A stretch of 64,000 bases of DNA from a virus, in the IMG/VR virus record IMGVR_UViG_3300031994_000034, one strand, 5' to 3'. The position numbers and the translations under genes were made by a program. How positions within the stretch are numbered: position 1 is the first letter of the stretch; every line of letters starts with the position of its first letter. The notes below the pieces were generated by a model that saw nothing but the letters and a program-made list of their open reading frames with translations, was not told where the DNA came from and ran no database searches. Below are positions 10,797 to 62,073 of the stretch, piece after piece.

Positions 10797-11300
10797 ATGA
10801 AAGAAGAGAAAGAAGTGATTCCAATCTTTGTCCCGTTGGACGAGATAGAACAATTTCCCTCCCCGATGGAAATGCCTGACGATGCAGGGCGGCTGGCACT
10901 GAAAGCAAAAGGAAGTGTGCTGCGCGGCTTCCGATGCAAGGACATCACCTCGACATGTCTGTGGAGTAGAAACGGCGCATGGAAAGGATTCTCGAGGAGT
11001 TTGCTATGCCGCTACGATGGCAGTATGCCGCACTTCAACTTCATGCTTCGCACGATGAATAACTGGGAGGATGGGCATAACTATATCGTATTGCTTCCGC
11101 GAGAGGATGGTTCATACGTGGTGTTCGGCAACAGTTTTAGAGATATTACGCTCGACGACAGTAATACGGAACGCCAGACCTTCACTCTTGAATGTCCGTA
11201 TCATTTGGTGCCGTTCCCCTACTACGACGGCACTGTGGAATTGACCGACTGCACATGCCCCGAACTTATGGAGCATCTGTACGGAGCGAAACTGAAATGA
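10797..11300 (+). CDS. Hypothetical protein (167 aa)
   Basis: TGGAGGAATAAAATT precedes ATG 10797. Confidence 0.6.
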   Translation: MKEEKEVIPIFVPLDEIEQFPSPMEMPDDAGRLALKAKGSVLRGFRCKDITSTCLWSRNGAWKGFSRSLLCRYDGSMPHFNFMLRTMNNWEDGHNYIVLLPREDGSYVVFGNSFRDITLDDSNTERQTFTLECPYHLVPFPYYDGTVELTDCTCPELMEHLYGAKLK

Positions 11301-12004: not shown

Positions 12005-12193
12005 ATGACTATGCTGAAACCGCAAGACATAAGGATTGGCGACTACCTGCTGGCTGCCGATAAGGTAATAGACGGCGGGCGGTGCAGGGTTGACAACATC
12101 ATATTGAACTGGTTAATAAAAAGGAGTAATGATTATGGAACAACTGAAGATTTACGCTGCAACGCTGGAGGAATCGGCACAGCAGCAGATTGA
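12005..12193 (+). CDS. Possible small ORF (62 aa)
   Basis: Has the ATGACTATG start seen elsewhere in this module, but it overlaps the rtcB start by about 60 nt. Confidence 0.3.
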   Translation: MTMLKPQDIRIGDYLLAADKVIDGGRCRVDNIILNWLIKRSNDYGTTEDLRCNAGGIGTAAD

Positions 12194-13361
12194 TGACATG
12201 AGCAGGAGCGAGGCTTACAAGGACTGCACCATCCGCATCATGCCGGACTGCCATGCCGGGGCGGGCTGTACCATCGGCACGGTGATTGCCATCGGCGACC
12301 GCATCGTGCCAAACACCGTGGGCGTGGACATCGGCTGCGGTATGTTGGTGGTGCGGCTCGGCAAGGCCGATATTGACCTGCATCGGCTCGACAAGGTGGT
12401 GAATGAGAAGATACCCTCCGGCTTTAATATCCACGAGAAGCCTGTGCGAGAGATGGCGTTTCTCGACCGCTTCCATTGCCGCGAAGCCATCGACACCGAC
12501 ATGGCAAAGCGCAGCATCGGCTCGCTCGGAGGTGGCAACCACTTCATCGAGGTGGATGAGGGAAGTGACGGTGAGAAGTACCTGGTCATCCACTCCGGCA
12601 GTCGTAACCTCGGCAAGCGCGTCTGCGAATACTGGCAGCGCAGGGCTGAGGATTACTGCAAGCGGCTTGGCTACGACGAGCAGGAAATCATTGCACGGCT
12701 GAAAGTGGAAGGACGTCAGCAGGAAATCGCCGCTGCCATCAAGGAGGCTAAGAACAGTGCGCCGAAAGTCGGCAAGGACTTGGCTTTCATCGAGGGCGAG
12801 GATGCCGAAAAGTATCTCTACGACATGCAGCTGTGCCAGTTGTACGCCGACGAGAATCGTCGCGCTATGGCCCGAATTATCTGCGACGAAATGGGGTGGA
12901 TGCTTACGAGCATGAATAACTTTACCACCATCCATAACTACATCGACATCCGCCACCGCATCCTGCGCAAGGGTGCCGTGAGAGCTCTCAACGGTGAGCA
13001 ACTGATTATCCCCATGAACATGCGCGACGGCTCGCTGCTCTGCGAGGGAAAGGGAAACATCGACTGGCTCTACTCGGCTCCGCACGGTGCAGGTCGGTTG
13101 ATGTCGCGCAAGCAAGCCATCAGCAGTCTCTCGATGGATGAGTTTCGCCACGAGATGCAGAACGTATATAGCACGTCGGTATGTCCCGAAACCATCGACG
13201 AAAGTCCGATGGTCTATAAGCCCATGCAGGAAATTGTCAGCCAGATAGCCGACACAGTGAAAATCATCGACATCATCAAGCCCATCTACAACTTTAAGGC
13301 AAAGATACCAGAGAAACCCGACTGGAAAGCAAATAGGCATAAACTGAAGAAGGAGGAATGA
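12129..13361 (+). CDS. rtcB: RNA ligase RtcB
   Basis: MPDCHAGAGCTIGTV, GVDIGCGM, GGGNHFIE, HSGSRNLG and SAPHGAGR motifs; 410 aa. The start could be ATG 12135. Confidence 0.9.
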   Translation: MIMEQLKIYAATLEESAQQQIDDMSRSEAYKDCTIRIMPDCHAGAGCTIGTVIAIGDRIVPNTVGVDIGCGMLVVRLGKADIDLHRLDKVVNEKIPSGFNIHEKPVREMAFLDRFHCREAIDTDMAKRSIGSLGGGNHFIEVDEGSDGEKYLVIHSGSRNLGKRVCEYWQRRAEDYCKRLGYDEQEIIARLKVEGRQQEIAAAIKEAKNSAPKVGKDLAFIEGEDAEKYLYDMQLCQLYADENRRAMARIICDEMGWMLTSMNNFTTIHNYIDIRHRILRKGAVRALNGEQLIIPMNMRDGSLLCEGKGNIDWLYSAPHGAGRLMSRKQAISSLSMDEFRHEMQNVYSTSVCPETIDESPMVYKPMQEIVSQIADTVKIIDIIKPIYNFKAKIPEKPDWKANRHKLKKEE

Positions 13362-54819: not shown

Positions 54820-55770
54820 ATGGCAAACCCAAGAGTGTATGTTGGTACTTATGGCAAGTACAACCGTGGCTCGCTGGCCGGTGGTTGGCTGAGTCTGAAA
54901 GAATGCAAGGACTATCAGGACTTCCTGCGGAAATGTGGCAGACTGCATCGCGGGGAGCACGACCCTGAGTTTATGATACAGGACTGCGAGGACTTCCCAG
55001 ACGGGCTGAATTGCGGCGAGTGGCTATCGGAGCAGGATTTCAAGGATGTTATCGCCGCCTGCGAGGAGGAAGAGCGGCAGGAGTCTGTAGCCGACCGGTT
55101 GCGGGTCGCCCTGCGTGAACGTCTGAAGGCCGACGGCAAGGCTGTCCCTGCTGATGACGAGCAGACGCTGCTGGAGGAATACATGAAGGAGTACGAGAAG
55201 GTGTGGCCCGACGACAAGTCGATGCTGGACTATTGCCGCAAGGAGTTCTCGGGTGCCGTGCGCCTGCAGAACGGCGGCATCCTCTATTTCGAGAAGCCGA
55301 GCATCAAGACGGAGTTTTGCTTCGGCTATTCCACCTGCGGACAGGGCGCAGAGTATGACGAGGCGAACAATGCGGCGCGGTCGGCGAGGACGGAGGGCTA
55401 CTTCCTGCACGCCAACCTGGACGAGATGGACGAGCGCATCCGTGCGCTGGAACTGAACTGTTGCTATCCCGAAGGGGAGTGGAATGGCACCTACGACAAC
55501 CTAACGTGGTACATTCAGCGGAAGAGCTATTGCAGCCAAAAGGAGGAACTGAACTTGTTCGAGTTCCGCGCCTGGCGCGAATACGACGTGGAGAACGAGC
55601 CGTGGCGATACACGCCGGGCAGTTACGAGAAGATGTCGGACGCCGACCGCATGACTATCCTCGGCGGCATGAAGCGTGAGCGAGAGAAGTTCGAGAAGCG
55701 GCTGCGTGCCTATCTGAAACGCTACGGCACCACGAAGCTACGCACATGGACCTACTGGCTGGACGAATAG
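54820..55770 (+). CDS. ArdA-like antirestriction protein candidate (316 aa)
   Basis: N-terminus VYVGTYGKYNRGSLAGGWLSL...EFMIQDCEDFP, compared from memory with Tn916 ArdA VYIANLGKYNEGELVGAW. Confidence 0.5.
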   Translation: MANPRVYVGTYGKYNRGSLAGGWLSLKECKDYQDFLRKCGRLHRGEHDPEFMIQDCEDFPDGLNCGEWLSEQDFKDVIAACEEEERQESVADRLRVALRERLKADGKAVPADDEQTLLEEYMKEYEKVWPDDKSMLDYCRKEFSGAVRLQNGGILYFEKPSIKTEFCFGYSTCGQGAEYDEANNAARSARTEGYFLHANLDEMDERIRALELNCCYPEGEWNGTYDNLTWYIQRKSYCSQKEELNLFEFRAWREYDVENEPWRYTPGSYEKMSDADRMTILGGMKREREKFEKRLRAYLKRYGTTKLRTWTYWLDE

Positions 55771-55883: not shown

Positions 55884-56933
55884 ATGGCAAGAACAACCGA
55901 TTATCTCACCTTCATGGTGGATGTGACCCCATACGAGCATGAGGGGAACAACTATAATGCACTGAACATCATCGTGGCCTATCGCAAGGGGCAGGGTTTC
56001 GTTATCTGCTGGCAACCCGTGCGGAAGACGGACATGGGTTATATCACTGGTCCTATGCCGAGCCGCGACCCACTCGTGGGCGGCAAGGGATTCGTGGCAA
56101 AGGAGGCATCGCGCAACAACGCGAAGATACTGGAGATGATGAAGGCGGCCCTATTGCTTGGAGCTGAGGGCATCAAGTTCTTCTTCGACCAGCGCAACTA
56201 CGACCGCCTGAAGGAGTTTATGTGCGACGTATGCAACTACGGCTATACGGCTGACGTCGAGAAGCAACTGCAAGAGACTATCAACAACAACTCAACCGAT
56301 AACAACTCAAAATCATCTACAACTATGGCAAAGAAGAACATGGCCCAGAATGAGAGTGCTAACGTGCAGAACGCACAAGTGAACAACCAGGCAGACGAGC
56401 AGCCCAAACAGGTGACGCAGAAGAAGAAAGCTATTGCCGAGCAGCAGCCTGCCAAATTCTCTGTTGTCCCCTATACCAACAAGCAGGGCGAGACGGGTTA
56501 CTTTCTCTTCGGCTTTGCCTCACAGGAGGAAGCAAAGGGCCTGGCCGACCGCATGGCCAAGAGCGTCCGCGAAGGCTTCCGCTATGAGGACCATACCCGC
56601 TATGACGTGGTAGGCTTCCCGCCCCGCTATGCTCAGATGGCACAGCAGATGTGCGATGCACTGAATGCTGGCGATGCAGCTGCCGTGGCGAAGATTGCAG
56701 CCAGCACCTTCGATGTCTATGCCGCTGCCGTGGCCGACGGCAAGGCTGAGAGCGACCGCAAGCGTGCCGAGCGCAAGGAGGCCGAGGCAAAGGCAAAGGC
56801 TAAGGAGGTAGCCAAGGTGAAGAAGTCCGCAGGTCTCTATTCCAAGGAGGACGTAGCCGCTATGATGCAGACACTATTGAATGGTGGCGACGTTCCGGAG
56901 GACATCAAGGCGTTGCTGGCCAAGGTGGCGTGA
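55884..56933 (+). CDS. Hypothetical protein (349 aa)
   Basis: cactATGGCAAGA start after the TTCATAA heptamer array. Confidence 0.65.
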   Translation: MARTTDYLTFMVDVTPYEHEGNNYNALNIIVAYRKGQGFVICWQPVRKTDMGYITGPMPSRDPLVGGKGFVAKEASRNNAKILEMMKAALLLGAEGIKFFFDQRNYDRLKEFMCDVCNYGYTADVEKQLQETINNNSTDNNSKSSTTMAKKNMAQNESANVQNAQVNNQADEQPKQVTQKKKAIAEQQPAKFSVVPYTNKQGETGYFLFGFASQEEAKGLADRMAKSVREGFRYEDHTRYDVVGFPPRYAQMAQQMCDALNAGDAAAVAKIAASTFDVYAAAVADGKAESDRKRAERKEAEAKAKAKEVAKVKKSAGLYSKEDVAAMMQTLLNGGDVPEDIKALLAKVA

Positions 56934-57061
56934 GTGACTTTTTCAATGCACAGTTCATAATGCATAATTCATAATTAAATCAGTCTCGCAGAAATCGCGG
57001 ATATACGCAGAAACATTTCCTCTATTTCCGCTATTTCTGCGGGACATAAACGAAACGAACT

Positions 57062-57226
57062 ATGGCAAGCATGTATGTGACTATACGCATCGACTATGAT
57101 GCACCCATCGAGACGGACATGGAGACTATCGCAGGGATGGTGTGCGAACGGGCTAACGCTCACAATCACACCATCGAGGATGGCGTGACGATCGAGAATG
57201 TGGAACTATGTGGGATTAACGAATAA
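57062..57226 (+). CDS. Small ORF (54 aa) immediately upstream of the RT, below the track threshold
   Basis: My translation: MASMYVTIRIDYDAPIETDMETIAGMVCERANAHNHTIEDGVTIENVELCGINE*. aactATGGCAAGC start context. Confidence 0.5.
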   Translation: MASMYVTIRIDYDAPIETDMETIAGMVCERANAHNHTIEDGVTIENVELCGINE

Positions 57227-57237
57227 AGCAAGAAACT

Positions 57238-58830
57238 ATGGACAAGATATTATCAATGTTTTTCGAGGCAGGGCGGTGGGAATACGCCATTGCCAAGGGT
57301 GTGGGTAAGGACGTTCCGAAGAACGTGTTGTACCAACTATGCAAGCCAGAAGTGCGGATGCAGATGTACGAGGCTATCCGCACGGGACAGTACGAGATTG
57401 CACCGCCACATACGGCACTTATCCCGAAGGATACGCCAGGCGAGTTCCGCACGGTGTATGTGAACGAGGCAGCTGACCGTGTGCTGCTATCCATTGCCAA
57501 CGACCTGCTGTTTGAGTTGATGCCAGACAGGGTGCATCCGCGTTGCAAGTCGTACTTGAAAGGTGTTGGTTGTGGGAGGATAGTGCAGGAAGTCAGTACG
57601 GCCATCCTTGCGGCAAAACCGCAAGGTACAGAGAAATTGGGCTGGAAGAGCGACCTGAGTAAGTATTTCGACTCGGTACCTATCCGATTCATAGATGCTG
57701 CCTTCGACATGGTAGAGGAACGGCACGGACATTCGGCCCTGATCGATGTACTGCGAAAGTATTACCATGCCGACCTCTATTTCACTCCCGATGGGGTGCT
57801 GGAAAGCAAGTACCAAAGTCTGAAGCAGGGTTGCTCGGTGGCATCGTGGCTGGCCGACGTCTTACTCTATCACATCGACGAGCGACTGACTAAGTTGAAC
57901 GGCTATTACGTCCGCTATTCGGACGATATGCTCTTTATCGGGCCGGATGCAGAGCAGGCTATGCAGGTCCTCACGGAGGAACTGGCAGCTATGGAAATGC
58001 GGCTCAACCCTAAGAAGGTGGAGTGGCTGGACGAGCGGCACTGGTTTAAGTTCCTGGGCTTCTCTATCCGTGGCAAGGACATCAGTCTGAGCAGTACGAG
58101 AATCAAGACGTTTCAGAGGGAGATTGAGAACAGGACAGTGAAAAGTGGAAAATCTAAGTTCACAATCACTTCGGCTCTCAACTCCGTGAACCGCTATCTG
58201 TATCGTGGCGACGGACAGGGGCATTCGTGGGCAACGCAAGTGCTGCCTATCGTGAACGTAAGACAGGACATCGCCACGCTGAACCTGTTCGTGATGGACT
58301 GTCTGCGGGCTGCCTGTACGGGCAAGACGAAAGTGGGCGGTCTGGGCTATGACAAGCAGGGTAGGGACGGCTGCATCGTCCGTGGCAGGGGCAGGAATGT
58401 GAGTGCCAACCGCAGGAAGACGGGCGACGACATCGGCGGCTATCTGTCGCTGAGCTGTATGCAGAACGCGATGCGGACGAGCAAGGCGGCGTATGACTCG
58501 CTGGTGCGCTCACTCAACTTCTCGCAGAAAACGCAGAAAGCGCAGAAATCTGATGCTACGAGCATCGAGGAACTGGAGGCGGCGTATGCGGTGTATAAGC
58601 ACTCCATTCCGAGCGAAAGGACGATGGGGCGTGTGCCTCGCTTCTATGCGCTGCCCGAAAGCGAGTTGAGCAATGACGATATGCTCTATGGCGTTCCCCG
58701 TGAACAGGCGGAGCGCGAATTGGAGAAGGTGCTGGCAGGGTTCACGATGCCTGAAGGGGCAGGGTGGTTCTGGCAGAGCGAGAACGACAAGGACTTGGTG
58801 GTGCTGCGCTCATGGTGCAGTGCCGCATAG
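57238..58830 (+). CDS. Reverse transcriptase (530 aa), stand-alone, with ~200-aa C-terminal extension
   Basis: IPKDTPGEFRTVYV, ADRVLLSIAN, GWKSDLSKYFDSVP, SLKQGCSVASWLADVLL, YYVRYSDDMLFIG, RLNPKKVEW, WFKFLGFSI. Confidence 0.9.
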   Translation: MDKILSMFFEAGRWEYAIAKGVGKDVPKNVLYQLCKPEVRMQMYEAIRTGQYEIAPPHTALIPKDTPGEFRTVYVNEAADRVLLSIANDLLFELMPDRVHPRCKSYLKGVGCGRIVQEVSTAILAAKPQGTEKLGWKSDLSKYFDSVPIRFIDAAFDMVEERHGHSALIDVLRKYYHADLYFTPDGVLESKYQSLKQGCSVASWLADVLLYHIDERLTKLNGYYVRYSDDMLFIGPDAEQAMQVLTEELAAMEMRLNPKKVEWLDERHWFKFLGFSIRGKDISLSSTRIKTFQREIENRTVKSGKSKFTITSALNSVNRYLYRGDGQGHSWATQVLPIVNVRQDIATLNLFVMDCLRAACTGKTKVGGLGYDKQGRDGCIVRGRGRNVSANRRKTGDDIGGYLSLSCMQNAMRTSKAAYDSLVRSLNFSQKTQKAQKSDATSIEELEAAYAVYKHSIPSERTMGRVPRFYALPESELSNDDMLYGVPREQAERELEKVLAGFTMPEGAGWFWQSENDKDLVVLRSWCSAA

Positions 58831-59227
58831 ACTATTCGCCACCGCACAGTGGCTATCCCTGCGTAGGGCGGCGCATCTTTAAGGTGCCGGCGTTTCAAAC
58901 ACGGGTTTCACTGGAGCCCATCTGGCAGATTTCCCAGATTGGCTCGGTTCAGCCCGTGCCACGCCGGCACTTATCATCGACGGAATAAAGACGATGTGCC
59001 AGGCCGCAAGGCGCAGGGAAGAGGGTAGCGCATACTGCCTATACAGACTATCAGAACGGCACAATTCAGCAATTCGAGCTATTAAGTCTTCTTTCACGTC
59101 GAACCCTTCGGGTCCGCAGGTACGGCGCTTCGCCGCTTCCGCTGGCTTCGCAGCCAGTACCTGCGGAACCGGGCGGGTCGCGTTCAGAAGACCAAAGCTC
59201 GAATCTTCATCGACACCATAAAGCGCT
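58831..59227 (+). ncRNA. Candidate structured RNA NC1 downstream of the RT
   Basis: No ORF. An 87-nt three-tier hairpin at 58884-58970. The 10-bp stem CCGCAGGTAC/GTACCTGCGG encloses two hairpins. Shares sequence blocks with 60381-61086. Confidence 0.45.
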
Positions 59228-59291
59228 ATGCCGCGCCGTGAGGATGGACTGAAAAACAAAATTATCAACCATTTCAAAACTTAAAATCATT

Positions 59292-60380
59292 ATGAAGACT
59301 ATCAACAACGACGTGAACAACAACATGAGTAACAACAACGAGACAAAGGTGATGTGTCCTGTATGCGGCACGGAGTTCGCCATCGGCGAGCACGAACACA
59401 GAGTGAAGAACGCTGTCAGCATCGGCAAGGACAGTGGGCTGGGTGAGGTCTATCTGCCTGTGAGCAAGCGAGGCGACGCGCTGAAGGCTGCGGGCGTAGA
59501 TACGACGAAGTATTTCTCCATCAACCTGCCTACGGGTGGCAGTCAACTGATGAAGATGACGGACGGGGGTGTGCCTGTGGCAGTGACGGACGACGACCCT
59601 ATCATGGCGGCTATCCGCACACAGGGCACGGTACCTAACCGCTCGCTGTTCCGCCGCTGGGTGATGAGTCAGGTGTTCCACGGCTTGCAGTGTTCGGGCG
59701 GTTTCACGCAGTGGCTGAAGTGGCACGGCTATAAGTATCAGTGGGAGATGCTGGTGGAGGAACTGCGTGTGCAGGCCAAGCTCTACGGCAAGGACATGGA
59801 GAACTATGACGCCCGCAACCGTTGGTTTAACCGTGAACTGGCTGTGACGATGGCGAAGGACTATGTGGAGCAGCTGCGCAAGGATGCACACAAACGTCCG
59901 ACGCACAAGTGCAAGGGTGTGCCCTACATCCGCTTCTCGAACGAGAACTATTTCGTGAGCGACATCGAGAAGAAATTGATTACTCCCGTACATACACGTA
60001 TCGTCGCCATCGAGAGGGCAAAGAATCCTCAGCAACTCTACGATGCCGTGCGTAACTTCTGGTGGAAAATGCCAAGCGGCAGTCAGTATTACGACCAGTG
60101 CGCCGCATGGAAGGATGCCTATAAGGGCATGGGTGCCTATGCCACGATGCAGAACCTGCTGCGCTTCCACGGCTGCGGTTTTCCCAACGGCAACCAGTTC
60201 TATCATGCCCGTCTGTCCAACCTGCAAATGCTGGAGAATGCTGCTAAGGCATACGCCAATGGTGAGGGCTGGCGTCTGTTCGGTCTGATGAAGCAGATGC
60301 TGGAGATGAACGGCATCGACATCAAGGCAAAGATGCAGGAGTGGGCGCAGGCAAAGAAGGCTAAGAACCTGCGCCGATAA
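59292..60380 (+). CDS. Hypothetical protein with N-terminal zinc-ribbon-like CPVCG (362 aa)
   Basis: Complete ORF. The long antisense track ORF 59274..60431 is a shadow. Confidence 0.7.
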   Translation: MKTINNDVNNNMSNNNETKVMCPVCGTEFAIGEHEHRVKNAVSIGKDSGLGEVYLPVSKRGDALKAAGVDTTKYFSINLPTGGSQLMKMTDGGVPVAVTDDDPIMAAIRTQGTVPNRSLFRRWVMSQVFHGLQCSGGFTQWLKWHGYKYQWEMLVEELRVQAKLYGKDMENYDARNRWFNRELAVTMAKDYVEQLRKDAHKRPTHKCKGVPYIRFSNENYFVSDIEKKLITPVHTRIVAIERAKNPQQLYDAVRNFWWKMPSGSQYYDQCAAWKDAYKGMGAYATMQNLLRFHGCGFPNGNQFYHARLSNLQMLENAAKAYANGEGWRLFGLMKQMLEMNGIDIKAKMQEWAQAKKAKNLRR

Positions 60381-61086
60381 GCCATACACGAAAAGGCCGT
60401 GCGACCTATCCGCTGTGAGACGTGCAGACATTTTAGTCGATCAGGATTTCAACCTGTACGTTCATCTCGTGAGGTCCGACATCCATATTGGAATGCGGAC
60501 CTCCACGAGATGACCTTACAGGCCATCCTGATTGTCTCATCGACACGATACAGACACGCACCATGCACGGAGCACAGCGACTATACACCCCAGCACAGGG
60601 GACGGGCACTGCAAGACAGACGCAATTTAGTGAACAGTAGATAAGGGAAGGCGGCCTGCATCCGTCGTATCCCTATTGTTATACGACGGCTGGAACCGCC
60701 TTCGTATCTCACTGTTGACATCGAACGAGTAAAGACGATGTGCCGAGTCTGTGAGCAGTGACCTATCAGGGAGCGCACCCTATCATGCCGCAAGACATCC
60801 ACGCTTTTCAAAGCGCCGGTTCACAGTTTGCCTGGGTTCCACTGGGATATTCCCAGTTCCCCAGGTAAGTTGCACCGGCACTTATCGAACCTATACAGCC
60901 ATGCGCCGAGGATGGTGAGCGACAACGGGAACGGCTGCGCATACAGCCTATGAGGTTTGCAGAGCGGAACTTTCAAACGACATCAGACTTAGATAAGCTC
61001 GCCTCAGTTAGGGCGGCCAGCCTACCCGCTGGCGGCCTTAACGAGGAGAGCTCCCTCTGATGCCCATATCAACCGAATAAAGCACT
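60381..61086 (+). ncRNA. Candidate structured RNA NC2 (related to NC1)
   Basis: No credible ORF over ~700 nt. The hairpin at 60813-60881 covaries with 58884-58970. Repeated ATCGA-N5-TAAAG-N4-ATG(TG)CC motif. Confidence 0.45.
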
Positions 61087-61151
61087 ATGCCAGTCCGCGA
61101 GGCAGACGAAAAAAGAAGGTACAACTTAAAACAAAAATACGCAATAAAATT

Positions 61152-61496
61152 ATGAAAATTAAATCATCTATCGGAAAGAATGTGAACGAGGCGGTGAAAA
61201 ACTGCCGTGAGGTATTGGCAAACGAAACCGTGAACCTGCTGAAGCAGATGCGTGTAGAGCCAGGGCAGGAGGTGCTGTTCAAGAGGGCGCTGTTCCTCTA
61301 TCAGCACAAGGGAATGACCACTGAGACCATTGTCTGCGACCGCATCGCCTACTTCGGACGTGAGGGCAGCGAACCCTATTACATCGTCAGCATGGGCAAG
61401 GACGAGTACGTATCGCCAAAGAGCAATCTTTTTCTCTCGACAGACAGTCTGCAGGGTATCTACGAAGAGGTACGCCGCGTGGTGAGGGAAGAATAA
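61152..61496 (+). CDS. Hypothetical protein (114 aa)
   Basis: Complete ORF. Confidence 0.6.
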   Translation: MKIKSSIGKNVNEAVKNCREVLANETVNLLKQMRVEPGQEVLFKRALFLYQHKGMTTETIVCDRIAYFGREGSEPYYIVSMGKDEYVSPKSNLFLSTDSLQGIYEEVRRVVREE

Positions 61497-61553
61497 TCTG
61501 TGGTATCTGTGCTATCTGTGTGAGAATGTCGCACGGAAATCACAGAAATCACG
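61496..61553 (+). repeat. Nonamer-word array (ATCTGTGNT x3 then CACGGAAAT/CACAGAAAT)
   Basis: Read directly from the sequence. Confidence 0.7.
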
Positions 61554-61587
61554 AAAAAAGAAGGAACAATTAAAAACAAAACGAACT

Positions 61588-62073
61588 ATGATGGAAGATT
61601 TATTCACACGGAAACAGATGGAGAACGCGGTGATGCTGGCCGCTGACCTCTATCAGGGAATGTATTACAGCCCTGCAACCGACGGCGGTGCGCTGGAAGT
61701 GGCAGGTGCTATCATTGACGAAGCCGTGAAGATGGAGGCGTGGATGACGGAGAAATATGGTAAGGACGACGACCAGTATCTCGACCACCTGGATGAGTAC
61801 GAGACTCTATTGAAAAAGAAGTATGGCCTGCAGAAGAACGAGGTGACGGTTATCTTCGGGGAGAATGCGGCACAGGCCTATATGAACGACGGCGTGGACG
61901 GGCTGTGCGAGTTTATCGACGAAGGTCAGCTGGTGCGAATGACGTTCGACACGTTGGCCGAGCGGAGGGCGTATATCAGTGGCATAGACGATGCCGACGG
62001 CTGGTTGGGCAGCGCTGTGCTGGAAGACAGTGATGCCGAGAGCGAGAGAGTGAAGGCTTTATTGGACAATTAA
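61588..62073 (+). CDS. Hypothetical protein (161 aa)
   Basis: acgaactATGATGG start context. Confidence 0.65.
   Translation: MMEDLFTRKQMENAVMLAADLYQGMYYSPATDGGALEVAGAIIDEAVKMEAWMTEKYGKDDDQYLDHLDEYETLLKKKYGLQKNEVTVIFGENAAQAYMNDGVDGLCEFIDEGQLVRMTFDTLAERRAYISGIDDADGWLGSAVLEDSDAESERVKALLDN

What the first reader, a model, noticed from the sequence alone, without database searches (positions are those of the whole stretch)
57062..61155. Stand-alone reverse transcriptase followed by two related ORF-free structured segments: candidate RT-ncRNA system
CDS 57238..58830 has the full prokaryotic RT motif series (IPKDTPGEFRTVY, DRVLL, SDLSKYFDSV, LKQGCSVASWLADV, YVRYSDDMLF, LNPKKVEW..FKFLGF). It also has a ~200-aa C-terminal extension in which I see no nuclease motif. 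The known RT classes I can test by eye do not fit. It is not inside an intron, because a 54-aa ORF ends 11 nt upstream. There is no Avd-like gene and no A-mismatched TR/VR pair in the window. It is longer than typical retron RTs. Most genes in this module are a few to ~120 nt apart. Yet the RT is followed by 461 nt (58831-59291) and, after one 362-aa zinc-ribbon-containing ORF, by 771 nt (60381-61151) without credible ORFs. The two segments share architecture and sequence blocks (see the next findings). An RT with a dedicated ncRNA is the logic of retrons and of several defence-associated RT systems. I do not recognise this particular layout: the ncRNAs lie downstream, are duplicated, flank a conserved ORF, and sit on a phage-plasmid-like element among early/anti-restriction genes.
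Basis: partly seen in the sequence, partly recalled or inferred. Interest (0 to 1): 0.85.

Follow-up and report, generated by a model that had tools for sequence, protein, structure and literature searches.

The report
Phage UG27 reverse transcriptase RNA array
This is a gut-phage reverse transcriptase system of an already catalogued type (UG27), and its two "ORF-free segments" are one tandem array of six structured RNA modules split by a gene; what the system does is unknown in everything I could read.

Summary
It matches the PADLOC profile RT_UG27 (E=1.5e-208). Its C-terminal extension is the partner module RTas346, fused here. The ORF between the two segments is RTas337. Mestre et al. 2022 (PMC9226505) already described UG27, both partners, its location in gut phages and a predicted ncRNA next to the RT.

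The two segments are one array of six ~145-205-nt RNA modules on the RT strand: two before gene 337 and four after it. Each module is a rod: helix P1, a 3x3 purine loop, helix P2, an asymmetric internal loop carrying UUYA and a fixed 28-29-nt motif (AUCRA..UAMAG..AUGYGCC), then a ~90-nt hairpin. Mini-hairpins separate the modules.

Covariation over 150 modules from 31 sources is strong: 89.6% of cells paired against 30-44% in slid controls. All 166 hits are on the RT strand and none lies in a coding region. The cultured Bacteroides phage BS-TP1 carries eight units.

The closest characterised relatives are DRT9 and DRT10, which carry out ncRNA-templated, protein-primed DNA synthesis. That mechanism is inferred here, not shown. 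A September 2026 preprint discusses UG27 ncRNA at length, but I could not open it. Verdict: a new member of a known kind, of moderate interest.

The parts
57238..58515 (+). UG27 reverse transcriptase core (aa 1-426 of the 530-aa ORF); catalytic YSDD at 57916-57927
   Evidence: PADLOC RT_UG27 E=1.5e-208, aa 1-426 against profile positions 2-420 of 420. Pfam RVT_1 E=9.6e-17. Nearest solved folds are group II intron RTs and DRT9.
58516..58830 (+). RTas346 module fused to the RT C-terminus (aa 427-530); invariant Y450-x-x-Y453-x-H-S-x-P-S-x-R at 58585-58620
   Evidence: PADLOC RTas346 E=3.1e-22 on aa 427-528. In split-layout loci this module is a separate 150-174-aa protein. The YxxYxHSxPSxR block is invariant in 17 of 17 fused and stand-alone sequences.
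58838..58853 (+). Leader mini-hairpin (GCCAC / CGCACA loop / GUGGC) before unit 1
   Evidence: Read from the sequence. It belongs to the same class as the linker mini-hairpins with an MRCRYA hexaloop.
58857..59018 (+). RNA module u1
   Evidence: Covariance model hits: R1 98.1 bits, E=1.2e-18; R2 81.8 bits.
59023..59040 (+). Linker mini-hairpin (loop CGCAUA)
59045..59250 (+). RNA module u2 (long 140-nt P3 hairpin)
   Evidence: R2 43.5 bits, E=3.7e-07. P1 CUAUC/GAUGG, loops AGA/GAG, P2 ACGGC/GCCGU.
59292..60380 (+). RTas337 protein (362 aa), function unknown
   Evidence: PADLOC RTas337 E=2.2e-112. 1259 homologues found. No Pfam or PHROG family. No match by PDB sequence, PDB fold or viral fold search.
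60410..60580 (+). RNA module u3
   Evidence: R1 67.5 bits; R2 41.3 bits.
60588..60601 (+). Linker mini-hairpin (loop AGCACA)
60605..60762 (+). RNA module u4
   Evidence: R1 78.7 bits; R2 68.8 bits.
60768..60781 (+). Linker mini-hairpin (loop AGCGCA)
60784..60926 (+). RNA module u5 (most degenerate closing helices)
   Evidence: R1 25.2 bits, E=9.6e-4; R2 49.1 bits, E=2.3e-08.
60933..60948 (+). Linker mini-hairpin (loop CGCAUA)
60953..61109 (+). RNA module u6, followed by an A-rich unstructured leader to the ATG at 61152
   Evidence: R1 88.2 bits; R2 75.0 bits.

Best explanation
This is a phage-encoded UG27 system (Class 2 UG/Abi reverse transcriptase). It has three parts: an RT fused to the 346 module, the 337 protein, and a tandem array of six structured RNA modules made from the same strand as the genes, probably as one transcript. 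Each module is a rod. Two covarying helices (P1 and P2) flank a purine-rich 3x3 loop. An asymmetric internal loop carries an invariant UUYA on one side and a fixed 28-29-nt motif (AUCRA-N5-UAMAG-N3-YAUGYGCC) on the other. A very stable ~90-nt hairpin of hypervariable sequence caps the rod. My inference is that each module is an RT-binding ncRNA that acts as scaffold and probably as template. The conserved loop lies directly 3' of the stable hairpin, which is where DRT10 keeps its template loop. DNA synthesis would be protein-primed, as in DRT9, DRT10 and AbiK, and the invariant tyrosine pair of the 346 module is the candidate primer. The product would serve the phage (counter-defence or host takeover), not host immunity. 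Shown here: the identity of the three proteins, the modular RNA architecture, its conservation and its strand. Inferred: RT-RNA binding, templating, protein priming and biological role.
For: Identity: RT_UG27 E=1.5e-208, RTas346 E=3.1e-22 and RTas337 E=2.2e-112, the same trio described in PMC9226505. RNA: fold z = -8.5 and -13.1. Six model hits in 64 kb, all inside the two gaps and all on the + strand. 166 of 166 hits in 31 sources are on the RT strand and none lies in a CDS. RNAalifold on a plain MAFFT alignment finds P1 with 5 of 6 pairs compensated. Over 150 units, 89.6% of cells are paired against 30-44% in slid controls, 786 cells changed on both sides, and the covariation score is 0.98 against <=0.16. 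The nine highest mutual-information column pairs are all P1 or P2 pairs. P3 is an unbranched hairpin in 150 of 150 units, median z -8.15. Loop length is 28-29 nt in 133 of 150 units. Strand: G.U 100 against A.C 26 in P1/P2, and 56 against 18 in a strand-neutral test on P3. Mechanistic analogy: the next-best PADLOC profiles after UG27 are UG26, UG17 (=DRT10) and Drt9. Among defence RTs, DRT9-ncRNA complexes are the nearest solved folds (E~1e-9). DRT9 uses its ncRNA as scaffold and template and primes from C-terminal tyrosines (PMC12483538). [quoted passage not shown] YxxYxHSxPSxR is invariant in 346. Phage role: ArdA lies upstream, relatives are viral contigs and the cultured phage BS-TP1, and Mestre et al. 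found no defence-island enrichment.
Against: There is no expression, cDNA or binding data. The DRT10 A-B-A' template-reset repeat is not enriched in the loop. The only U-rich conserved element is UUYA, with no DRT9-like U tract. Whole-unit folding energy does not favour the + strand (-65.9 against -67.3 kcal/mol). Unit number varies from 2 to 10, so there is no fixed stoichiometry. The RT model is only moderate (pLDDT 70.7). The 337 protein has no inferable function. The covariation alignments were fitted to the model. The independent support is.
Confidence: 0.6

Rival explanations
1. Scaffold-only RNA. The modules assemble or regulate an RT oligomer, and DNA synthesis is template-independent, as in AbiK, Abi-P2 and DRT4.
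For: Other UG/Abi RTs make untemplated DNA from a protein primer (background quoted in PMC12483538; DRT4 in PMC12783706). No A-B-A' repeat or homopolymer template was found in the loop. DRT9's ncRNA also has a scaffold role.
Against: According to the abstract of PMC13174585, Class 2 DRTs make ncRNA-templated products, and UG27 is Class 2. A 28-29-nt loop of fixed length and sequence next to a stable hairpin resembles a template or active-site element.
Confidence: 0.15
2. Retron-like msDNA. P1 plays the role of the a1/a2 closing helix, a conserved G of the purine loop primes from its 2'-OH, and the long P3 hairpin is copied into multicopy hairpin ssDNA, one species per module.
For: The topology is similar: a hypervariable but complementary closing helix next to conserved purines, and a long hairpin conserved in structure but not in sequence, as with retron msd. 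This parallel is from my own knowledge of retrons.
Against: The RT is not in the retron clade: the best retron profile scores E=1.8e-8 against 1.5e-208 for UG27. The retron RT is a distant fold match (rank 49). Characterised relatives prime from protein, not RNA. Copying P3 would require unwinding a hairpin of median 90 nt and fold z about -8.
Confidence: 0.12
3. The array works independently of the RT, for example as phage regulatory or decoy RNAs, or as cis elements controlling expression of 337 and downstream genes.
For: No direct RT-RNA link is shown. Some units lie upstream of the RT (L006, L014, L020).
Against: The motif and the units occur only in gaps flanking UG27 genes. There were no other hits in the 64-kb window or in about 400 kb of flanks, and all hits are co-oriented with the RT. 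The array stays with the gene trio through rearrangement between the fused and split layouts.
Confidence: 0.08
4. DNA-level repeats (replication origin, iterons or packaging signals), or RNA from the opposite strand.
For: Whole-unit MFE is marginally better on the - strand. Tandem hairpin repeats can mark origins.
Against: G.U exceeds A.C by 100 to 26 in P1/P2 and by 56 to 18 in the strand-neutral P3 test (32 to 4 in the window's clade). Orientation relative to the RT is fixed in 166 of 166 hits. The conserved elements are asymmetric and single-stranded.
Confidence: 0.03
5. Decayed coding sequence or unrecognised recoded ORFs.
For: Gut phages often reassign stop codons (mentioned in PMC9226505).
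Against: No frame opens under any single stop reassignment. Compensatory base-pair changes, and a hairpin arm of hypervariable sequence, are incompatible with coding constraint.
Confidence: 0.01

Closest known systems
UG27 systems (Class 2 UG/Abi RTs; Mestre et al. 2022, NAR, PMC9226505)
   Same: Same RT group, same two partner families (clusters 346 and 337), same habitat (viruses of gut Bacteroidota; relatives here are named Prevotella or Prevotellaceae MAGs, and there is a Bacteroides phage), and a structured ncRNA in the gap next to the RT.
   Different: Here 346 is fused to the RT, and most of the RNA (four of six modules) lies downstream of 337, not between the RT and the next gene. The paper describes 'a putative conserved ncRNA with three long stem-loops'. 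It does not, in the text I could read, describe a 2-10-unit tandem array of rod modules with mini-hairpin linkers. Its Supplementary Figure S6 was not available.
[quoted passage not shown]
   Same: Class 2 UG/Abi RT, and the third-best PADLOC profile for this RT (E=2e-22). [quoted passage not shown]
   Different: No A-B-A' repeat enrichment in the UG27 loop. The UG27 loop is highly conserved, whereas DRT10 template loops are poorly conserved. There is no SLATT effector, the RNA is multi-copy, and the system is phage-encoded rather than a host defence.
DRT9 (UG28): poly-dA synthesis by an RT-ncRNA hexamer (PMC12483538; PDB 9NLV, 9IOA, 9VMA)
   Same: The closest solved defence-RT fold (E~1e-9). 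Its ncRNA is both scaffold and template, and conserved tyrosines in a C-terminal element prime synthesis. UG27's 346 module has an invariant YxxY.
   Different: The DRT9 ncRNA is single-copy, lies upstream of the RT and carries a universally conserved poly-U tract. UG27 modules lie downstream, in tandem, with no U4 tract. DRT9 has no 337 or 346 partners.
Retron msr-msd ncRNA
   Same: A closing helix of variable but complementary sequence, conserved purines beside it, and a long hairpin conserved only in structure.
   Different: Different RT clade. Retron ncRNA is single-copy and upstream of the RT. 2'-OH priming is unproven here.
DRT2 (UG2) ncRNA-templated rolling-circle cDNA
   Same: Class 2 UG/Abi RT with a dedicated structured ncRNA template.
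   Different: Weak sequence and fold similarity (E=6e-3; rank 26). DRT2 has one ncRNA upstream of the RT. Nothing in the UG27 modules suggests a concatemeric ORF, because P3 is hypervariable.

Membership tests
UG27 system (Mestre et al. 2022) | RT matches the UG27 profile over its full length | tested here: met
   PADLOC RT_UG27 E=1.5e-208, aa 1-426 against profile positions 2-420 of 420. The next best is UG26 at 1.1e-31.
UG27 system (Mestre et al. 2022) | Associated cluster 346 protein | tested here: met
   RTas346 E=3.1e-22 on aa 427-528, fused to the RT. Homologous to the stand-alone 346 proteins of split loci.
UG27 system (Mestre et al. 2022) | Associated cluster 337 protein | tested here: met
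   RTas337 E=2.2e-112, aa 18-352 against profile positions 1-315 of 316.
UG27 system (Mestre et al. 2022) | Encoded in viral genomes of gut Bacteroidota/Firmicutes, not in defence islands | tested here: met
   15 RT loci and 396 relatives of 337 in IMG/VR contigs of 50-145 kb. Cultured Bacteroides phage BS-TP1. 0 plasmid matches. ArdA lies upstream. The window itself shows no structural phage genes among the ORFs I scanned.
UG27 system (Mestre et al. 2022) | Structured ncRNA in the intergenic region adjacent to the RT | tested here: met
   Units u1 and u2 at 58857-59250. Covariation. I could not compare them with the published covariance model because Supplementary Figure S6 is not held.
DRT10 (UG17)-type templating | A-B-A' direct repeat in the template loop | tested here: not met
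   Direct repeats of 3, 4 or 5 nt occur in 98%, 51% and 11% of loops, against 98%, 54% and 14% in shuffles.
DRT10 (UG17)-type templating | [quoted passage not shown] | tested here: met
   The conserved 28-29-nt loop starts one base after the closing pair of P3 (covarying columns 31-201). P3 median z is -8.15. This shows geometry only. Templating was not tested.
DRT10 (UG17)-type templating | SLATT effector partner | tested here: not met
   The partners are 346 and 337. There are no Pfam or PADLOC SLATT hits.
DRT9 (UG28) | Conserved poly-U template tract in a single ncRNA upstream of the RT | tested here: not met
   The only conserved U-rich element is UUYA. The RNA is downstream of the RT and multi-copy.
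DRT9 / Abi-type protein priming | Conserved tyrosine(s) that covalently prime DNA synthesis | not testable with these tools
   The candidates are the invariant Y450 and Y453 in the 346 module. Testing needs biochemistry.
Retron | RT of the retron clade with msr-msd upstream and 2'-5' branched msDNA | tested here: not met
   The best retron RT profile scores E=1.8e-8 against 1.5e-208 for UG27. The RNA is downstream of the RT. Branching is not testable here.
Group II intron | RT embedded in intron RNA domains | tested here: not met
   No Rfam intron family at E<=1 in 56000-62000. An ORF ends 11 nt upstream of the RT. The fold similarity to group II RTs is limited to the RT core.
Diversity-generating retroelement | Avd gene and TR/VR repeat pair | tested here: inconclusive
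   No long direct repeat pair appears in 58800-61200 beyond the module motifs, and the RT classifies as UG27. I did not run a window-wide TR/VR search.

The most novel reading that the evidence does not exclude
The UG27 RNA is a 'poly-ncRNA': a single phage transcript carrying 2-10 self-contained rod modules, each separated by a hexaloop mini-hairpin that may serve as a processing or protein-binding site. Each module would load one RT protomer and present a fixed 28-29-nt loop as template. DNA synthesis would be primed from the invariant YxxY of the 346 module, giving protein-linked DNA that the phage uses against host immunity. That would be the first anti-defence use of a DRT-like enzyme and the first multi-module RT ncRNA array.
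Probability: 0.2. Interest if true: 0.8.

Novelty: new member of a known kind. Interest (0 to 1): 0.45.

Why it matters
UG27 is among the most abundant reverse transcriptase groups in human-gut phages: 1447 dereplicated genomes in PMC9226505, and here 4490 RT and 1259 337-protein homologues in public data. Yet its function is unknown in the literature I could read. All characterised relatives (DRT2, DRT9, DRT10) are host defences, so a phage-borne version sitting beside an anti-restriction gene suggests the same chemistry used for the opposite purpose. This work provides a precise module model (coordinates, helices, invariant loop, linker hairpins), candidate priming residues, and a cultured phage-host pair (BS-TP1 / Bacteroides salyersiae BG8) carrying eight units. 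Together these make the question directly testable. The finding is not a new class of system.

Tried and rejected
1. An unconstrained search for the helices closing each motif could not separate real sites from random positions, because the search space was too large. I replaced it with a constrained test.
2. Rfam at E<=1 gave only two chance miRNA-like hits.
3. Stop-codon recoding does not reveal hidden ORFs.
4. The sigma-70 promoter and terminator scan was uninformative. It found no + strand terminator, and Bacteroidota promoters are not covered.
5. Pairing between UUYA and UAMAG has no covariation support. A short CAU/AUG 'P4' helix and a P2 extension were inconsistent between units on manual inspection of A3, so I left them out.
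6. The DRT10 A-B-A' signature is not enriched.
7. The idea that six modules match an RT hexamer fails, because unit number ranges from 2 to 10.
8. The + versus - strand MFE comparison did not favour the + strand. I replaced it with G.U against A.C counts.
9. The 337 protein has no Pfam, PHROG, PDB-sequence, PDB-fold or viral-fold match.
10. The RT matches only generic RT cores among PDB sequences.
11. The nine largest ORFs of the window have no Pfam or PHROG family, so I could not type the element from them.
12. The preprint 10.64898/2026.09.22.753630 could not be opened. Only term counts are available: UG27 x74, 'UG27 ncRNA' x11, 'UG27 system' x20, cDNA x24, tandem x3.
13. The Mestre supplement is not held.
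14. RtcB linkage to the system is not established. RtcB lies within 5 kb in 5 of the 95 metagenomic loci, and also near the system in BS-TP1.

Full report
OBSERVATION. It is followed by 461 nt, then a 362-aa ORF (59292..60380), then 771 nt. Neither gap holds a credible ORF, even if one stop codon is reassigned. Both gaps fold far better than dinucleotide shuffles, with z = -8.5 and -13.1. They share ordered sequence blocks.

IDENTITY. The claim that the RT fits no known class is wrong. Against PADLOC, the RT is a full-length match to RT_UG27 (E=1.5e-208; the next best is UG26 at 1e-31). Its C-terminal ~100 aa match RTas346 (E=3e-22), and the 362-aa ORF matches RTas337 (E=2e-112). Mestre et al. 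2022 (PMC9226505) defined UG27 as a Class 2 UG/Abi RT. They linked it to clusters 346 and 337 and found the trio in 1447 dereplicated viral genomes of gut Bacteroidetes and Firmicutes. They saw no enrichment in defence islands. They predicted a conserved ncRNA 'with three long stem-loops' in the gap next to the RT and asked for experimental validation. The window's locus therefore belongs to a published group.

CONTEXT. Fifteen loci related through the RT and 80 related through the 337 protein (out of 396 confirmed relatives) came from IMG/VR contigs of 50-145 kb. Public protein data hold 4490 RT and 1259 337-protein homologues, and the few that carry names come from Prevotella or Prevotellaceae MAGs. 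The 337 protein matches 2 of 50,697 GenBank phage records and 0 of 72,556 plasmids, so 'phage-plasmid' is not supported. ArdA lies upstream at 54820..55770. The nine largest ORFs of the window have no Pfam or PHROG family.

TWO LAYOUTS. In the window's clade the RT and 346 are fused, and non-coding gaps lie on both sides of gene 337. In the more common clade, the RT (about 420 aa) is followed by a gap of 1.0-1.5 kb, then a separate 346 gene, then 337 directly.

THE RNA IS A TANDEM ARRAY OF MODULES. A motif, ATC[GA]A[CA]N2-5TA[AC]AG, occurs six times in the two gaps, always on the + strand. Shuffles give 0.71 hits per 64 kb on both strands. Across the loci a slightly relaxed form occurs 239 times on the RT strand and 12 times on the other. 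It falls only in gaps flanking the three genes.

Each copy lies just 3' of a long hairpin. A constrained search for closing helices found at least 10 of 11 pairs in 17 of 152 distinct contexts. Reversed-strand decoys gave 1 of 152 and random positions gave 0 of 152. All 17 P1 helices had different sequences.

RNAalifold on a plain MAFFT alignment of 16 units recovered P1 by itself, with compensatory changes in 5 of 6 pairs. A covariance model built from those 16 units found exactly six units in the 64-kb window, all in the two gaps and all on the + strand. It found 67 units in 30 loci. A second model built from those 67 found 166 hits in 31 sources. All were on the RT strand and none was inside a coding region.

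On 150 aligned units, 89.6% of P1/P2 cells form standard pairs, against 30-44% when the 3' partners are slid by 1-3 columns. There are 786 cells changed on both sides, and the covariation score is 0.98 against <=0.16. These alignments are fitted to the model, which inflates the numbers somewhat. Searches are independent of that fitting.

An unbiased mutual-information scan ranks P1 and P2 pairs in its top nine places. It adds one more pair, columns 31-201 (G-C switching to A-U, 89% paired), which closes the long hairpin.

MODULE ANATOMY. The order is: P1 (7 bp, hypervariable, covarying); a 3x3 purine loop (RRG opposite RAG); P2 (about 5 bp); an asymmetric internal loop; and P3. The 5' side of the internal loop reads N4-UUYA. 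The 3' side is 28-29 nt in 133 of 150 units and reads NC-AUCRA-N5-UAMAG-N3-YAUGYGCC-RN. P3 is an unbranched hairpin in 150 of 150 units, with median length 90 nt, range 70-140 nt and median z -8.15. Its sequence is not conserved.

Between units, 78 of 96 linkers form one mini-hairpin, and 58 of those have a hexaloop of consensus MRCRYA.

In the window the units are u1 58857-59018, u2 59045-59250, u3 60410-60580, u4 60605-60762, u5 60784-60926 and u6 60953-61109. Each gap ends in an A-rich, unstructured stretch of ~40 nt before the next ATG. No + strand terminator-like site was found across 56800-61700. Both points fit one polycistronic transcript, but that is an inference.

UNIT NUMBERS. Fused-layout loci carry 6-10 units: 0-5 between 346 and 337, 4-7 after 337, and 1-2 upstream of the RT in three loci. 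In split-layout loci 2-6 units were detected at E<0.01, essentially all between the RT and 346, with at most one weak unit after 337. Spacing is 160-200 nt. So the 'second segment' is characteristic of the window's clade. The array has been repositioned relative to the genes and not duplicated. The number is not fixed, which rules out a simple match between six modules and an RT hexamer.

STRAND AND MOLECULE. G.U pairs outnumber A.C by 100 to 26 in P1/P2. In a strand-neutral test, I folded P3 with Watson-Crick pairs only and classified the 1x1 mismatches inside helices. G.U outnumbered A.C by 56 to 18 (p=1e-5), and by 32 to 4 in the window's clade. This favours RNA from the RT strand over DNA-level repeats or antisense RNA. 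Whole-unit folding energy, however, does not favour the + strand.

PROTEINS. The AlphaFold2 model of RT-346 (pLDDT 70.7) is closest to group II intron RTs. Among defence RTs it is closest to DRT9-ncRNA complexes (E~1e-9), ahead of DRT2, DGR and retron RTs.

The 346 module carries a Y-x-x-Y-x-H-S-x-P-S-x-R block that is invariant in the fused form and in 16 stand-alone homologues, even though overall identity is low.

The 337 protein (pLDDT 71.5 overall, 80-97 over residues 130-350) has no match in the PDB or in BFVD, in PDB sequences, or in Pfam or PHROGs. Only its CPxCG pair is invariant, so a zinc ribbon is unproven.

MECHANISM (INFERRED). The characterised relatives are DRT9 (UG28) and DRT10 (UG17). 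In DRT9 the ncRNA is both scaffold and template inside an RT-ncRNA hexamer, and C-terminal tyrosines prime poly-dA synthesis (PMC12483538). [quoted passage not shown]

The UG27 module has the same geometry: a conserved loop directly 3' of a very stable hairpin. It lacks the A-B-A' enrichment and has no U tract. I therefore favour ncRNA-scaffolded, probably loop-templated, protein-primed DNA synthesis, with the 346 tyrosines as candidate primers and a benefit to the phage.

My confidence is about 0.97 for the UG27 identity, about 0.9 for the modular RNA, and about 0.35 for the templating and priming details. The rivals are scaffold-only RNA, retron-like copying of P3, an array that works independently of the RT, DNA-level repeats and decayed coding sequence. 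Each is weighed in its own section.

NOVELTY. The system, its partner proteins, its phage habitat and the existence of an adjacent ncRNA are published. Three things may be additional: the explicit module model, with the tandem array, the mini-hairpin linkers and the placement after 337 in the fused clade; the invariant YxxY; and the eight-unit array in the cultured phage BS-TP1, whose RT is annotated 'tail protein'.

I cannot claim priority for these. A preprint dated 24 September 2026 (10.64898/2026.09.22.753630) mentions UG27 74 times, 'UG27 ncRNA' 11 times and cDNA 24 times, and I could not open it.

VERDICT. This is a new member of a known kind, in a layout variant. Interest is moderate, at 0.45.

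Noticed in passing
window 12129-13361 (+); L035, L042-L044, L047; L096 12624-12692: An RtcB-type RNA ligase ORF (PHROG 1075, E=1.7e-130). RtcB also lies 2-3.5 kb downstream of gene 337 in five loci and in the cultured phage BS-TP1. An RNA ligase near a tandem array of helix-closed RNA modules is suggestive (processing or circularisation?). Linkage is not established, because only +-5 kb is held for most loci.
   Followed up: partly
L096 (PQ571274.1, Bacteroides phage BS-TP1) 5872-10425: The UG27 RT of this cultured phage (gp79) is annotated 'tail protein'. The 1350-nt stretch after it has no annotation and is tiled by eight RNA units. gp80 contains the 346 module and gp82 is 337. The host is Bacteroides salyersiae BG8, so a tractable experimental system exists.
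   Followed up: yes
window 56978-57048 (+): An imperfect ~70-nt hairpin in the gap upstream of the 54-aa ORF that precedes the RT. It gave a chance-level Rfam miRNA hit (E=0.54). It could be a regulatory or terminator element at the start of the RT operon. The 54-aa ORF itself has no homologue in the 15 RT-related loci.
   Followed up: no
window 59274-60431 (-): A 385-aa ORF antisense to the 337 gene. This is almost certainly a shadow ORF caused by codon bias of the sense gene.
   Followed up: no
L018 5073-5110; L020 6460-6490 and 6833-6870: Some inter-unit linkers are expanded by short tandem heptamer repeats (ACAUUGA-like) or by an extra hairpin. L002 10517-10550 has a C-rich tract followed by a GGAGAGGGGAG complement.
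   Followed up: no
window 1-54000: The nine largest ORFs (up to 1044 aa) have no Pfam or PHROG family. The element is almost entirely uncharacterised, and no tRNA genes were found.
   Followed up: partly
window 10878-10989 (+): A weak hit to the first RNA model (15.5 bits, E=0.09). The broader model did not recover it at E<0.01, so it is probably chance.
   Followed up: partly
L006 5637-5825; L014 5668-5826; L020 1823-2006 and 2645-2832: RNA units also occur upstream of the RT in three fused-layout loci. The array can therefore flank the operon on both sides. The window has none upstream.
   Followed up: partly
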